NCBI GenBank assembly: GCA_038065575.1
Contig: JBBTQT010000136.1
Coordinates: forward strand, 1 to 25,021
Direction of reading: 5' to 3'
DNA: 25,021 nt
Origin: Patescibacteria group bacterium
GTDB taxonomy: Bacteria > Patescibacteriota > Patescibacteriia > Magasanikbacterales > UBA922
Positions 1 to 9,888 of this stretch are shown one piece after another (the stretch's first letter is position 1; every line of letters starts with the position of its first letter). Under the pieces are notes generated by a model that was given only the letters and a program-made list of their open reading frames with translations, was not told where the DNA came from and searched no databases. A program made the position numbers and the translations under genes.

Positions 1-175
1 CTTCCAGTCTTTCCGCCAATTTCATGACATTGTCCCCTTCCACCACCTCAAAAGTGACCGGCGCAAAAAGATTCGTTTCATCCTTGAAAATTTCCCGGTA
101 AACAAACCAAAATCCCACCACTAGACATAGGGCAATTGTTGGTAGGATAATTTTTAATAGAATATTTTTGGACAT
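1..175 (-). CDS. 5' end of a probable endolytic transglycosylase MltG (runs off the left edge)
   Basis: My translation from the ATG at 175: MSKNILLKIILPTIALCLVVGFWFVYREIFKDETNLFAPVTFEVVEGDNVMKLAERLE. An N-terminal TM helix followed by VTFEVxxGxxxxxLAxxL resembles the MltG/YceG N-terminus. Not in the ORF track because it is partial. Confidence 0.6.
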   Translation of the reverse strand, partial: MSKNILLKIILPTIALCLVVGFWFVYREIFKDETNLFAPVTFEVVEGDNVMKLAERLE

Positions 176-236
176 AAACTGGATACTAAATAATTATTTA
201 CACTCTCCAATTATCGGCACTGTCGCCAATGGCCAA

Positions 237-495
237 AATTGTCATTCCAGCGAAGGCGGGAATCCAGAATTTGACTCAAATAGACGACGAACTGGATTCC
301 TGCTTTCGCAGGAATGACAGAAAACCGTATCCGGCGACAATCCAGAATCAATTGTCATTCCAGCGAAGGCGGGAATCCAGAATTTGACTCAAATAGACGA
401 CGAACTGGATTCCTGCTTTCGCAGGAATGACAGAAAACCGTATCCGGCGACAATCCAGAATCAATTGTCATTCCAGCGAAGGCGGGAATCCAGAA
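237..495. repeat. 113-bp tandem repeat (2 full copies plus a partial third), each unit an inverted REP doublet (BIME/REPIN-like)
   Basis: GTCATTCCAGCGAAGGCGGGAATCCAG starts at 241, 354 and 467 (period 113). The inverted partner CTGGATTCCTGCTTTCGCAGGAATGAC lies at 292-318 and 405-431. Spacers are identical between units. Confidence 0.95.
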
Positions 496-515
496 ACACA
501 AATAAACAAATAAAA

Positions 516-809
516 TTACTTAAACAATTTGTTATACAAATCCTTCCAGTTACAATTATTCTCCTCTATAAGTTTTAATTTCCAATCACGTTTCCAAATT
601 TTCAATTGTTTTTCTCTTTTTATGGCATCTTCTATTCTACCAAATACTTCAAAATACACTAGCATGTGAACTTGATACTTTTTGGTAAAACCTTTTACTA
701 TATCCAATTTATGTTCTTCAACTCTTCTTTTTAAATCATTAGTAACTCCAATATACAATGTGCCATTTTTTTGACTAGCCATAATGTATATGTAGAAGTT
801 AGTATGCAT
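516..809 (-). CDS. Short stand-alone GIY-YIG nuclease family protein (97 aa)
   Basis: YIYIMASQKNGTLYIGVT (GIY-YIG motif pair), RRVEEHK and REKQLKIWKRDWKLKLIE. Start moved to the ATG at 809 because the longer ORF only translates the REP (VIPAKAGIQ). Confidence 0.9.
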   Translation of the reverse strand: MHTNFYIYIMASQKNGTLYIGVTNDLKRRVEEHKLDIVKGFTKKYQVHMLVYFEVFGRIEDAIKREKQLKIWKRDWKLKLIEENNCNWKDLYNKLFK

Positions 810-833
810 AGTTTTTTGTATGGTGTATGTTTT

Positions 834-860
834 CTGGATTCCTGCTTTCGCAGGAATGAC
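834..860 (-). repeat. CGTC-type REP palindrome upstream of the GIY-YIG gene
   Basis: CTGGATTCCTGCTTTCGCAGGAATGAC, identical to 292-318. On the minus strand it forms the perfect hairpin ATTCCTGC-GAAA-GCAGGAAT. Confidence 0.95.
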
Positions 861-888
861 AAACGAACATGCGGTACTTTGCAATTAT

Positions 889-1941
889 CTAGAGGTATTT
901 TTCCAACCCTTCTTCCTCTATTTTTTTCAAGATGTCTTTTATATTCGGCACTTTGTCTTTCGGGCAGACGAGGAGAGCGTCTTTGGTGTTCACCACCACC
1001 ATCCCCTCCGCTCCCACCACCGCGACTAACTTTTCTTCTTCGTTATTGTAAACAAACGAATCCCGTGATGAATCCAGAACGACCTTGCCTTTGGTAAAAT
1101 TATTTTCCGGATTAGGCGCCAAGGCCTCCTTCAAAGCGTAGAGCGTGCCCGGATCGCTCCAGCCCAAATCCACCTTCAACACCACCGCAGCCTCCGAACT
1201 GATTTTCTCCAAAATGGCGTTATCAAAAGAAATTTTTTCCAAATCCGGATACATTTTCTTGATTTTTTCCTCGTCGCCATTCATCTCATTCAGGGCGCGA
1301 TACATTTCCGGCTGATACTTTTCGTACAGCCCCAAAACAAAATCCAAATCAAAAATGAAATAACCGGGATTCCAAAGCCATTCGCCACTCTCAAACATTT
1401 TTTCGCATTCCGCTAATTCCGGACGGTATTTCCATCCCAAAAATTCGTGTTGTTGGCCGCTGATTTTTTCGCCAACCTTGATCCAACCCAAATTATGATT
1501 GGCGAATCTGGGTTTTTCTCCCAAAAATACCAGCCGTTCGGAATCCTCGGCAATCAATTCCTTACCTTTTTTGAGCGCGGCCACAAATTCCGCCGGATGA
1601 TCCATGAAATGATCCGCCCACAAGACCGCCACCGCGCCGGCGACACCCATTTTCTTTAATCTCGTCAAACTAAGTCCGACCGCGGCCGCCACATCGCGAC
1701 GCGCCGGCTCTCCGAGAATATGGTGAGCGGACAGTTCCGGTATCTGGGCGCGAACGAGAGAAATATATTCGTCATTGGTGGAAACGAACAAATTTTCCAT
1801 CCCAAATTCTCTTACTCTATCCACCGCCATTTGCAAAGTGGATTTATCATCCTTCAAAATTTCAAATTGTTTCGGAGAATTTCGGCGGCTCAAAGGCCAA
1901 AGCCTGGTCCCCGCTCCGCCAGCGAAAATTATGATATTCAT
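889..1941 (-). CDS. manC: Mannose-1-phosphate guanylyltransferase (ManC-like, no C-terminal cupin/PMI domain)
   Basis: IIFAGGAGTRLWPLSRRNSPKQF, EPARRD, WADH, WNPGYFIF, WSDPGT. Start set at MNIII (1941). Confidence 0.85.
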   Translation of the reverse strand: MNIIIFAGGAGTRLWPLSRRNSPKQFEILKDDKSTLQMAVDRVREFGMENLFVSTNDEYISLVRAQIPELSAHHILGEPARRDVAAAVGLSLTRLKKMGVAGAVAVLWADHFMDHPAEFVAALKKGKELIAEDSERLVFLGEKPRFANHNLGWIKVGEKISGQQHEFLGWKYRPELAECEKMFESGEWLWNPGYFIFDLDFVLGLYEKYQPEMYRALNEMNGDEEKIKKMYPDLEKISFDNAILEKISSEAAVVLKVDLGWSDPGTLYALKEALAPNPENNFTKGKVVLDSSRDSFVYNNEEEKLVAVVGAEGMVVVNTKDALLVCPKDKVPNIKDILKKIEEEGLEKYL

Positions 1942-1951
1942 AGTACAATAC

Positions 1952-2197
1952 AATTACGAATTAACCGCCTTCGTCCCGACTAAGTCGGGACTACGGACGG
2001 TCGAAGAAAATTATTTTATCCGCCATAGCTCAAAAGCGAAGGCGGACGAATTACGAATAATGAACATGTTGTATCACGTCATTGCGAGGAGCGAAGCGAC
2101 GTGGCAATCCCTTAGTTTATATCAAAGTACAAAGGGATTGCCACGTCGCTCACTGCGTTCGCTCCTCGCAATGACGTAAAATTTTTAATTCTTAATT
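1952..2197. repeat. Composite heptamer-armed element containing three nested palindromes
   Basis: AATTACGAATTAA at 1952-1964 and ACGAATTACGAAT at 2046-2058. Degenerate inverted arm GTAAAATTTTTAATTCTTAATT at 2176-2197. Hairpins at 1965-2000, 2020-2045 and 2076-2177. Confidence 0.75.
2076..2177. repeat. CGTC-type REP inverted doublet (GTCATTGCGAGG family)
   Basis: The 38-bp arm at 2076-2113 is matched by 2132-2177, perfectly except for an 8-nt insert (TCACTGCG). The spacer is 18 nt and AT-rich. Confidence 0.92.
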
Positions 2198-9727: not shown

Positions 9728-9888
9728 AATTACGAATTAAAAATTACTCGGCTTCGCTTCGCTACGCCGAGCAGGCGAATTACCGCGTCATTCTGATCGG
9801 AGCGAAGAATCCCTTTAGGGGAATTACGAATTAACGATTACGAATGCGAAAGCATGAACCCGCCGGACACAATTCGTAATTCGTAATT
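9728..9888. repeat. Heptamer-armed element whose left arm is interrupted by two palindromic inserts
   Basis: AATTACGAATTAAAAATTAC [29-nt insert 9748-9776] GAATTAC [37-nt insert 9784-9820, containing CGTCATTCTGATCGGAGCGAAGAATC] GAATTACGAATT ... GGACAC-AATTCGTAATTCGTAATT. Confidence 0.85.

What the first reader, a model, noticed from the sequence alone, without database searches (positions are those of the whole stretch)
237..860. GIY-YIG nuclease gene bracketed by inverted CGTC-type REPs: candidate mobilising enzyme for an orphan repeat class
Seen: the 97-aa GIY-YIG gene sits between a REP at 467-493 and an inverted REP at 834-860, taking the place of the 24-nt spacer found in the neighbouring doublets. 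The gene is about 28% GC by hand count (571-780), visibly lower than neighbouring genes, and interrupts the manC-mltG junction. Known: GTAG-type REPs flank their RAYT (HUH tyrosine) transposases. As I recall (not checked), the survey that defined GTAG and CGTC REP superfamilies found no dedicated transposase for CGTC repeats. Inference: short GIY-YIG proteins may be the RAYT equivalent for CGTC REPs, forming an autonomous cassette plus non-autonomous doublets.
Basis: partly seen in the sequence, partly recalled or inferred. Interest (0 to 1): 0.8.

Follow-up and report, generated by a model that had tools for sequence, protein, structure and literature searches.

The report
Ssn nuclease gene with NTS hairpins
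The small GIY-YIG nuclease gene framed by inverted hairpin repeats is real, but it belongs to the Ssn nuclease / NTS-repeat system published in 2025 (a nuclease that cuts single-stranded DNA next to its own hairpin repeat), here as an inserted cassette in an ultra-small groundwater bacterium.

Summary
A 97-aa GIY-YIG gene (809..516, minus strand) lies between inverted hairpin repeats at 466-493 and 834-861. Two gene-less doublets of the same repeat sit beside it. The gene has 27.5% GC in a 46% GC genome.

The repeat is the published NTS/SRM motif, differing from the NTS consensus at 2-3 of 28 positions. The protein is 57% identical (E 1e-38) to the Neisseria gonorrhoeae SsnA orthologue, with the three mutated SsnA catalytic residues in register. 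This is therefore a member of the Ssn family (Chenal et al. 2025, PMC11893778). That paper already reported the NTS-ssn-NTS layout and its likeness to RAYT/REP. This scan has also met the system many times on other DNA.

The claim that the nuclease mobilises the repeats remains unproven.

New for this locus:
- 12 of 15 sister genera have manC directly followed by yceG/mltG, with no ssn gene between them.
- In a diverged relative the cassette is 92% identical, against 72-77% for its flanking genes. The step falls exactly at the hairpin ends.
- Doublet number here differs between contigs (0, 1 or 2).
- The genome has about 77 NTS copies and 66 related hairpins but only one ssn gene.

Verdict: new member of a known kind; low interest.

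The parts
516..809 (-). ssn gene: 97-aa single-domain GIY-YIG nuclease of the Ssn family (stop codon at 516-518). The longer ORF reaching 884 merely reads through the upstream hairpin.
   Evidence: Pfam PF01541 E 5.6e-17. 57% identity, E 1e-38, to the N. gonorrhoeae SsnA orthologue. Y8/Y19/E66 are invariant in 35 homologues. The start at 809 agrees with that alignment.
834..861 (-). NTS/SRM hairpin upstream of ssn, on the gene's strand, with the GTCAT tag facing outward (variant with a CCTGCG...CGCAGG stem).
   Evidence: DNA fold -7.8 kcal/mol, z -4.3.
466..493 (+). NTS/SRM hairpin downstream of ssn, on the opposite strand, tag facing outward (variant with one A.G mismatch in the stem).
   Evidence: It matches the published SRM degenerate pattern. 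DNA fold -4.8 kcal/mol.
240..319 (.). Gene-less head-to-head NTS doublet 1 (arms 240-267 on +, 292-319 on -; 24-nt spacer).
   Evidence: It folds as one long hairpin, -27.1 kcal/mol, z -9.3. Its spacer resembles that of the doublet on contig C50, which lies in the opposite orientation.
353..432 (.). Gene-less head-to-head NTS doublet 2, an exact copy of doublet 1.
   Evidence: The 113-bp units 237-349 and 350-462 are 100% identical. Contigs encoding the identical protein carry only one doublet, and a diverged relative carries none.
216..227 (+). Outer 12-bp repeat GGCACTGTCGCC. Its inverted partner bounds many NTS doublets of this genome, giving composite elements of about 130 bp.
   Evidence: Alignment of 18 doublets with their flanks. 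20 copies of the motif are followed by an NTS core within about 20 nt.
889..1953 (-). manC-like nucleotidyltransferase gene, the upstream neighbour of the insertion.
   Evidence: Pfam NTP_transferase plus ManC_GMP_beta-helix. Orthologues in 15 sister genera.
2..175 (-). 5' end of the yceG/mltG gene (cut by the contig end), the downstream neighbour of the insertion.
   Evidence: tblastn with the full YceG of contig L082, which encodes the identical Ssn protein, is 100% identical over residues 1-40. Pfam YceG on L082.

Best explanation
Window 466-861 is an NTS-ssn-NTS cassette. It comprises one Ssn-family GIY-YIG gene and its two cognate hairpin repeats in inverted orientation, inserted into the otherwise conserved manC-yceG intergenic spacer of a roughly 1.07 Mb groundwater bacterium that resembles Patescibacteria.

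By homology to the characterised SsnA proteins, the enzyme should bind the NTS hairpin when the DNA is single-stranded. Binding would depend on the stem and on the C just after it. Cutting would occur on that strand a few nucleotides 5' of the GTCAT tag, and double-stranded DNA would be left alone.

About 77 NTS copies, mostly head-to-head doublets, and about 66 hairpins of related families with the same GTCAT...ATCC frame are its likely substrates across the genome.

Shown here: family membership, the association, the insertion, and the different history of the cassette and its flanks.

Inferred: the biochemical activity of this particular protein, and its role in the cell. Possible roles are cutting incoming or replicative ssDNA at NTS sites, and so shaping recombination at those sites.
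For: - Repeat identity: the flanking copies differ from the published 28-nt NTS consensus at 2-3 positions, by direct comparison of the sequences. Genome-wide, 36 copies match it with at most 1 mismatch and 77 match the core with at most 2. The published SRM pattern matches 65 times, against 2-10 in shuffles.
- Protein identity: 57% identical, E 1e-38, to the N. gonorrhoeae orthologue. Numbered from the first of the two Ile codons that precede CTVY, that protein's residues correspond to the SsnA mutants Y6, Y17 and E64; ours are Y8, Y19 and E66.
- The gonococcal locus has 11 NTS copies in 3.2 kb.
- Association in 80 loci from many phyla: NTS core within 250 bp of the gene in 48 and on both sides in 33, with a 47-fold higher density than in the rest of the loci. 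The dominant orientation (upstream copy on the gene strand, downstream copy inverted) is that of the window.
- Co-occurrence: all 24 relatives without a GIY-YIG hit have 0-1 NTS copies; 17 of the 36 relatives with a hit have at least 2, as does the window's own genome.
- Published biochemistry for four homologues.
- Insertion: 12 of 15 sister genera have manC directly followed by yceG and none has ssn there.
Against: - No assay exists for this protein.
- CDD cd10448 membership could not be computed with these tools.
- The upstream repeat variant (834-861) misses the published SRM degenerate pattern, though not the NTS core.
- In the gonococcal locus the nearest NTS copies face the opposite way from those here, so layout is not uniform across the family.
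- The role published for Neisseria (restriction of transformation) has not been examined in this lineage.
Confidence: 0.88

Rival explanations
1. Ssn is the RAYT-equivalent enzyme that multiplies CGTC/NTS repeats: the gene cassette is the autonomous element and the doublets are non-autonomous copies moved by it. This extends the best explanation and does not exclude it.
For: - Doublets and cassette share the same outward-facing ends.
- Doublets are dispersed as whole units, in both orientations, with related spacers and shared outer flanks.
- There is one ssn gene for about 77 NTS copies.
- NTS is found at 2 or more copies only in relatives with a GIY-YIG hit.
- Doublet number at this site differs between contigs: 0, 1 or 2.
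- The left edge of the tandem 113-bp unit (237) lies 3 nt 5' of the NTS. My reading of the published oligonucleotide lengths puts the SsnA cut there. This is weak and could be chance.
- Chenal et al. raise the same hypothesis.
Against: - GIY-YIG nucleases hydrolyse DNA and form no covalent intermediate for strand transfer (established knowledge of the superfamily).
- Only the forward NTS strand is cut. Each strand of a doublet or cassette therefore has a single cut site, at its 5' end, and cannot be excised by Ssn alone.
- 28 of 32 doublets and cassettes have no flanking direct repeat, and the other four only 2-3 nt.
- Contig-level metagenome data showed no excised or empty form of this locus, but they were not suited to show one.
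- Relatives G029 and G041 carry 25 and 37 NTS copies with only weak GIY-YIG hits (E about 1e-7).
Confidence: 0.25
2. The cassette is a selfish unit that spreads between genomes by recombination at NTS copies, so that a resident doublet is an 'empty' landing site. The nuclease serves mainly its own maintenance or spread, in a homing-like manner.
For: - Against relative L085 the cassette is 92% identical in DNA (third codon positions 81%). manC is 72% and yceG 77% (third positions 47% and 40%).
- The change is abrupt at the GTCAT...ATGAC ends, with no gradient in the flanks.
- The gene has 19 GC points less than its genome, the 6th most extreme of 80 loci. ssn has a GC content no higher than its flanks in all 80.
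- Homologues are 55-70% identical across a dozen phyla.
- Several genomes carry multiple cassettes, each with its own hairpin variant.
Against: - Both lineages carry the cassette at the same site. An old insertion followed by unusually slow change of the cassette is therefore not excluded.
- Only one such pair was compared.
- No plasmid or phage vehicle was evident. There were no phage hits, and the plasmid hits were mostly on large non-mobilisable replicons or chromosomes labelled as plasmids.
Confidence: 0.3
3. Chance neighbourhood: the repeats are generic intergenic REPs (for example transcript-end hairpins) and the small GIY-YIG gene is an unrelated YhbQ/UPF0213-type housekeeping gene that happens to sit among them.
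For: The genome has three other small stand-alone GIY-YIG genes that are not flanked by NTS, so small GIY-YIG genes exist without repeats.
Against: - 47-fold enrichment of NTS next to homologues in 80 unrelated loci.
- Both-sided hairpins in 48 of 80 loci, against fewer than 1 expected.
- The protein matches UPF0213 (PDB 1zg2) only at E 4e-4 but matches SsnA at 1e-38.
- No terminator-like site is found here.
Confidence: 0.02

Closest known systems
Ssn nucleases with NTS/SRM repeats (SsnA of Neisseria meningitidis and homologues of N. elongata, N. wadsworthii and Wolbachia pipientis; Chenal et al. 2025, Nat Commun 16:2388, PMC11893778)
   Same: - Single-domain GIY-YIG protein of about 95 aa, 57% identical to the gonococcal orthologue.
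- Catalytic Tyr/Tyr/Glu in register with the mutated SsnA residues.
- Flanking repeat almost identical to the NTS consensus, including the GTC tag and the C after the stem, which the paper found critical.
- NTS-gene-NTS layout, with tens of further copies in the genome.
   Different: - The host is an ultra-small groundwater bacterium; the paper does not mention Patescibacteria or candidate phyla.
- The tag base before GTCAT is T, not C.
- One gene faces at least five hairpin families sharing the same frame.
- The doublets are nested in an outer 12-bp inverted repeat.
- Activity and cellular role are untested here.
CGTC-tagged REP superfamily (Di Nocera, De Gregorio and Rocco 2013, PMC3733652), including dRS3 (CGTC-1) and Rickettsia RPE
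   Same: Tagged hairpins organised mainly as head-to-head dimers: 30 of 32 adjacent pairs here. That survey stated that the repeat class has no dedicated transposase.
   Different: The survey found no associated gene. The Ssn paper supplies one but cites neither the survey nor the CGTC class name.
REP/RAYT systems (REPtrons; TnpA-REP, HUH Y1 transposases of the IS200/IS605 group) and REPIN doublets
   Same: A single-copy gene flanked by inverted copies of a hairpin repeat that is dispersed through the genome as doublets. Recognition of a hairpin in ssDNA plus an adjacent tag.
   Different: The enzyme fold and chemistry differ: a hydrolytic GIY-YIG nuclease, not an HUH tyrosine enzyme with a covalent intermediate. 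The tag is GTAG there and (C/T)GTC here. No mobilisation is shown for Ssn.
GIY-YIG homing endonucleases (I-TevI type) and UPF0213/YhbQ small GIY-YIG proteins
   Same: The same catalytic domain (Pfam PF01541).
   Different: There is no DNA-binding domain and no intron or intein context, unlike homing enzymes. The match to UPF0213 (PDB 1zg2) is only E 4e-4.

Membership tests
Ssn nuclease family (Chenal et al. 2025) | Homology to SsnA (the paper's criterion: tblastn E < 1e-10 against N. meningitidis SsnA) | tested here: met
   Against the N. gonorrhoeae orthologue: tblastn E 7e-28; pairwise 57% identity over 86 residues, E 1e-38. The N. meningitidis protein itself was not available.
Ssn nuclease family (Chenal et al. 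2025) | Single-domain protein of about 100 aa with the GIY-YIG catalytic residues (SsnA Y6, Y17, E64) | tested here: met
   97 aa, and the Pfam GIY-YIG match covers residues 5-78. Y8, Y19 and E66 are invariant in 35 homologues and align with Y6, Y17 and E64 of the gonococcal orthologue.
Ssn nuclease family (Chenal et al. 2025) | Gene flanked by NTS/SRM hairpin repeats that recur in the genome | tested here: met
   Inverted copies at 466-493 and 834-861. 77 core copies in the genome and 0 in the reversed-pattern control. The SRM pattern matches the 466-493 copy but not the 834-861 variant.
Ssn nuclease family (Chenal et al. 2025) | Membership of CDD cd10448 (GIY-YIG_unchar_3) | not testable with these tools
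   No CDD search was available. NCBIfam gave only a sub-threshold match to a group I intron endonuclease model.
Ssn nuclease family (Chenal et al. 2025) | Site-specific cleavage of single-stranded DNA only, next to the hairpin | not testable with these tools
   This needs a biochemical assay. It is shown for four homologues in the paper.
RAYT / REPtron (HUH Y1 transposase with GTAG REPs) | HUH motif and catalytic tyrosine of an IS200/IS605-type Y1 transposase | tested here: not met
   The only Pfam families hit are GIY-YIG and the related T5orf172.
RAYT / REPtron (HUH Y1 transposase with GTAG REPs) | Flanking REPs tagged with GTAG | tested here: not met
   The tag is TGTC/CGTC followed by AT.
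CGTC-tagged REP superfamily (Di Nocera 2013) | Short hairpin with an unpaired CGTC tag at one end, mostly arranged as head-to-head dimers | tested here: met
   30 of 32 adjacent pairs are head-to-head. In the NTS family the tag is TGTC; in other families of the same genome it is CGTC. Neisseria dRS3 is CGTC-1.
GIY-YIG homing endonucleases | Nuclease domain joined to a separate DNA-binding domain, encoded within an intron, an intein or a free-standing phage context | tested here: not met
   The 97-aa protein is the nuclease domain alone. The site is intergenic and chromosomal. No phage matches.

The most novel reading that the evidence does not exclude
The NTS-ssn-NTS unit is a discrete mobile cassette that enters genomes at existing NTS sites or doublets, and Ssn activity drives the gain, loss and tandem amplification of NTS doublets. 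Ssn would then be the long-missing dedicated enzyme of the whole CGTC REP superfamily, working by a route without a transposase: cutting followed by host repair or recombination. The evidence here does not exclude this. The cassette is far less diverged than its flanks, with sharp borders at the hairpin ends. Sister genera have manC next to yceG with no ssn between them. Doublet number varies between contigs. One gene faces several hairpin families.
Probability: 0.25. Interest if true: 0.65.

Novelty: new member of a known kind. Interest (0 to 1): 0.2.

Why it matters
This locus adds little on its own. The nuclease-repeat partnership, its biochemistry and the analogy to REP/RAYT were published in 2025, and this scan has met the system repeatedly.

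Two points may be useful to people working on Ssn:
- The system is abundant in ultra-small groundwater bacteria, which the paper did not discuss.
- This locus offers a clean natural comparison: sister genera with manC next to yceG and no ssn, a minimal cassette in a relative, and cassette-plus-doublet arrays in close strains. In that comparison the cassette has a different evolutionary history from its flanks.

That bears on the open question of whether Ssn cassettes and their repeats move, and how.

Tried and rejected
- Co-variation of nuclease and hairpin: pairwise protein identity against upstream-hairpin identity for 48 loci gave Mantel rho 0.07, p 0.18. There is no support at this depth. 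Within a locus, however, the two flanking hairpins match each other better than hairpins of other loci do (0.78 against 0.63), and paralogues in two relatives each carry their own variant.
- Target-site duplications around 32 doublets and cassettes: 28 have none and four have only 2-3 nt.
- Read-level search for excised or empty forms: the holding runs are kept only as assembled contigs, which break at every NTS. The 'joints' found are other doublets elsewhere, so the test is inconclusive.
- An apparent duplication inside yceG on contig L081 is a scaffold gap of Ns, not an insertion.
- Solved structures: only UPF0213 (PDB 1zg2) at E 4e-4.
- NCBIfam: no family above its cut-off.
- Phage collection: no match.
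- Supplementary tables of the Ssn paper are not held, so I could not check whether candidate-phyla homologues were in its lists.
- No promoter-like or terminator-like site was found between manC and ssn, so how the gene is transcribed is unresolved.
- No structure prediction was run; it would not have changed the verdict.

Full report
**1. The observation**

- The core GTCATTCCNGCGAANGCNGGAATCC occurs six times in the window, all between 241 and 860, with none in 100 shuffles.
- Copies at 241, 354 and 467 lie on the plus strand. Copies at 294-318, 407-431 and 836-860 lie on the minus strand.
- The first four form two head-to-head doublets with 24 nt between 28-nt arms. The last two enclose 334 nt.
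- A 113-bp unit (237-349) is repeated exactly at 350-462.
- Between the last pair, the minus-strand ORF 809..516 encodes 97 aa with a Pfam GIY-YIG match (E 5.6e-17).
- The longer 122-aa ORF in the mechanical list only reads through the upstream hairpin. Homologues start at the position of the ATG at 809.
- GC is 25.5-27.5% over 501-800, against 41-55% in the neighbouring gene and 46.4% for the genome.
- The neighbours are a manC-like nucleotidyltransferase gene (1953..889) and the start of yceG/mltG (175..2, cut by the contig end).

**2. What it is**

A literature search for GIY-YIG with repetitive extragenic palindromes returned Chenal et al. 2025 (PMC11893778). The paper makes these points:
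- It defines the Neisseria repeat NTS as CGTCATTCCCGCGMAVGCGGGAATCYRG, a subset of dRS3.
- It shows that a small single-domain GIY-YIG protein, SsnA, is encoded next to such repeats in many bacteria.
- SsnA binds and cuts only single-stranded DNA carrying the forward NTS.
- The three bases upstream of the palindrome matter for cleavage, and the C just after the palindrome matters for binding.
- Y6A, Y17A and E64A abolish cutting.

The window fits this description on both counts.
- Repeats: the window's copies differ from the NTS consensus at 2-3 of 28 positions and keep the GTC tag and the C after the stem.
- Protein, search hit: a protein search of the plasmid collection hit two N. gonorrhoeae records of 2.17 Mb. 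Their size suggests chromosomes filed as plasmids.
- Protein, identity: the gonococcal orthologue is 57% identical to the window protein over 86 residues (E 1e-38).
- Protein, catalytic residues: numbered from the first of the two Ile codons that precede CTVY, its Tyr-6, Tyr-17 and Glu-64 align with Tyr-8, Tyr-19 and Glu-66 here. All three are invariant in an alignment of 35 homologues.
- Gonococcal context: that locus carries 11 NTS copies in 3.2 kb.

The window gene is therefore a member of the Ssn family, flanked by its cognate repeat. CDD cd10448 membership and the enzymatic activity could not be tested here.

**3. The association is general**

- The protein has at least 7,995 homologues at E <= 1e-5, many 60-73% identical, from very different phyla.
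- Some database ORFs of homologues carry N- or C-terminal extensions that are translations of the hairpin.
- In 80 loci fetched from species genomes, the NTS core lies within 250 bp of the gene in 48 and on both sides in 33. Its density there is 47 times that in the rest of the loci.
- A more general finder (GTC followed by a stem of at least 7 bp) finds a hairpin upstream on the gene strand in 57 loci, downstream on the other strand in 57, and both in 48. About 0.1 per flank is expected.
- The dominant orientation is the window's: tags face outward. In the gonococcal locus the nearest copies face the other way.
- Among 60 relatives of the window's genome, all 24 without a GIY-YIG hit have 0-1 NTS copies, and 17 of the 36 with a hit have 2 or more. 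Two relatives (G029, G041) carry 25 and 37 copies with only weak hits. Relatives are not independent samples.

**4. This genome**

- G000 has 1.07 Mb in 148 contigs and is estimated 96% complete.
- It comes from groundwater metagenomes, and its closest named homologues are from Patescibacteria.
- It has 77-79 NTS copies and only one Ssn-type gene.
- Three other small GIY-YIG genes are of a different type and are not flanked by NTS.
- The base before GTCAT is T in all 80 copies scanned.
- Thirty of 32 adjacent pairs are head-to-head doublets.
- Stems vary with compensating changes, for example CCCGCG/CGCGGG, CCTGCG/CGCAGG and CCCACG/CGTGGG.
- Doublets are dispersed as units in both orientations, with related spacers. 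Many sit inside an outer 12-bp inverted repeat (GGCACTGTCGCC and its complement), giving composite elements of about 130 bp. The left one for this locus is at 216-227.
- A further 66 hairpins of at least five families share the frame (C/T)GTCAT...ATCC. They include those at 2077-2110, 2135-2176 and 9786-9812 of the window, and no second ssn gene accompanies them.

**5. Insertion and history**

- In 12 of 15 sister genera that have the manC orthologue, yceG follows it directly, and none has ssn there. One further locus ends at the contig edge.
- Four metagenome contigs encode the identical protein in the same manC-ssn-yceG context, but with one doublet instead of two.
- A more distant relative, L085, has ssn 94% identical in protein, manC 75% and YceG 81%. 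It has the bare cassette with no doublet.
- Between the window lineage and L085 the cassette is 92% identical in DNA (third codon positions 81%). manC is 72% and yceG 77% (third positions 47% and 40%).
- The change is abrupt at the GTCAT and ATGAC ends. In 60-nt windows the cassette scores 87-97% and the flanks 63-88%, with no gradient.
- ssn has a GC content no higher than its flanks in all 80 loci (mean about 10 points lower), and the window's 19-point deficit ranks 6th.

Together these results suggest that the cassette reached at least one of the two lineages later than the flanking genes diverged, or was replaced in place. An old insertion that changes unusually slowly is not excluded, and only one pair was compared.

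**6. Does the nuclease move the repeats?**

The evidence in favour is given above. Against it:
- GIY-YIG enzymes hydrolyse DNA and make no covalent intermediate (established knowledge of the superfamily).
- Only the forward NTS strand is cut. Each strand of a doublet or cassette therefore has a single cut site, at its 5' end, and Ssn alone cannot excise it as IS200/IS605 enzymes do. This is my inference from the layout.
- No target-site duplications were found in 28 of 32 cases.
- Nuclease and hairpin distances do not co-vary among 48 loci (rho 0.07, p 0.18).

One small coincidence points the other way. On the plus strand the forward copies lie 113 nt apart, and the repeated unit begins at 237, three nucleotides 5' of the NTS. 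My reading of the paper's oligonucleotide lengths places the SsnA cut there. Three matching bases could be chance.

Metagenome runs that hold the locus are kept only as contigs, which break at every NTS, so they could not show excision or empty forms.

**7. Comparison with what is known, and verdict**

- The 2025 paper does not cite that survey or name the CGTC class. The underlying discovery is nevertheless published.
- Earlier follow-ups in this scan reached the same identification on many other genomes. I had found the paper before consulting those notes.

The finding is a correct rediscovery of a known system and a new member of a known kind. It is of low interest in itself, with a modest contribution to the open question of mobility.

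Noticed in passing
window 2077-2110, 2135-2176, 9786-9812; genome-wide: At least five further hairpin families share the frame (C/T)GTCAT...ATCC but have longer or different interiors, for example CGTCATTGCGAGG...GGCAATCC. There are about 66 copies in the genome. Only one Ssn-type gene is present, so either one enzyme serves several families or these are relics of lost paralogues.
   Followed up: partly
window 216-227 and genome-wide: Many NTS doublets are nested inside an outer 12-bp inverted repeat (GGCACTGTCGCC ... GGCGACAGTGCC), forming composite elements of about 130 bp found in both orientations. The 12-mer occurs 178 times with up to 2 mismatches, against 65 in a shuffled genome, and mostly without an NTS beside it.
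   Followed up: partly
genome contigs C148:12592-12795, C139:3275-3493, C64:2922-3140: Three other small stand-alone GIY-YIG genes are not flanked by NTS. By eye, one lies between two sequences that look like tRNA genes. Another sits just before a tRNA-like sequence, preceded by what looks like a duplicated 5' part of it interrupted by hairpins. No tRNA search was run.
   Followed up: no
L114 (G055:C39:11000-19500) and L117 (G042:C5:16000-22000): Relatives carry several ssn cassettes within a few kb: three in 5 kb in G055. Each is framed by its own hairpin variant (stems ATTCCCGC, ATCCCGTA, ATCCCGGC; in G042 a CTGAACTTGATTCAG type).
   Followed up: partly
L120 (NZ_CP119142.1:1880219-1883476): Two N. 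gonorrhoeae records in the plasmid collection are 2.17 Mb long, which suggests chromosomes. In the one examined, the ssnA orthologue has no ATG, GTG or TTG where the start is expected (the frame reads ATT ATA TGC), so it may use a rare start codon or be inactive in this strain.
   Followed up: no
window 240-320, 400-560, 800-880, 2080-2160: Summed contig depth over the hairpin repeats reaches thousands in four groundwater metagenome runs, against about 5-10 for the unique parts of the locus. These repeats are therefore shared by many organisms of that community.
   Followed up: no
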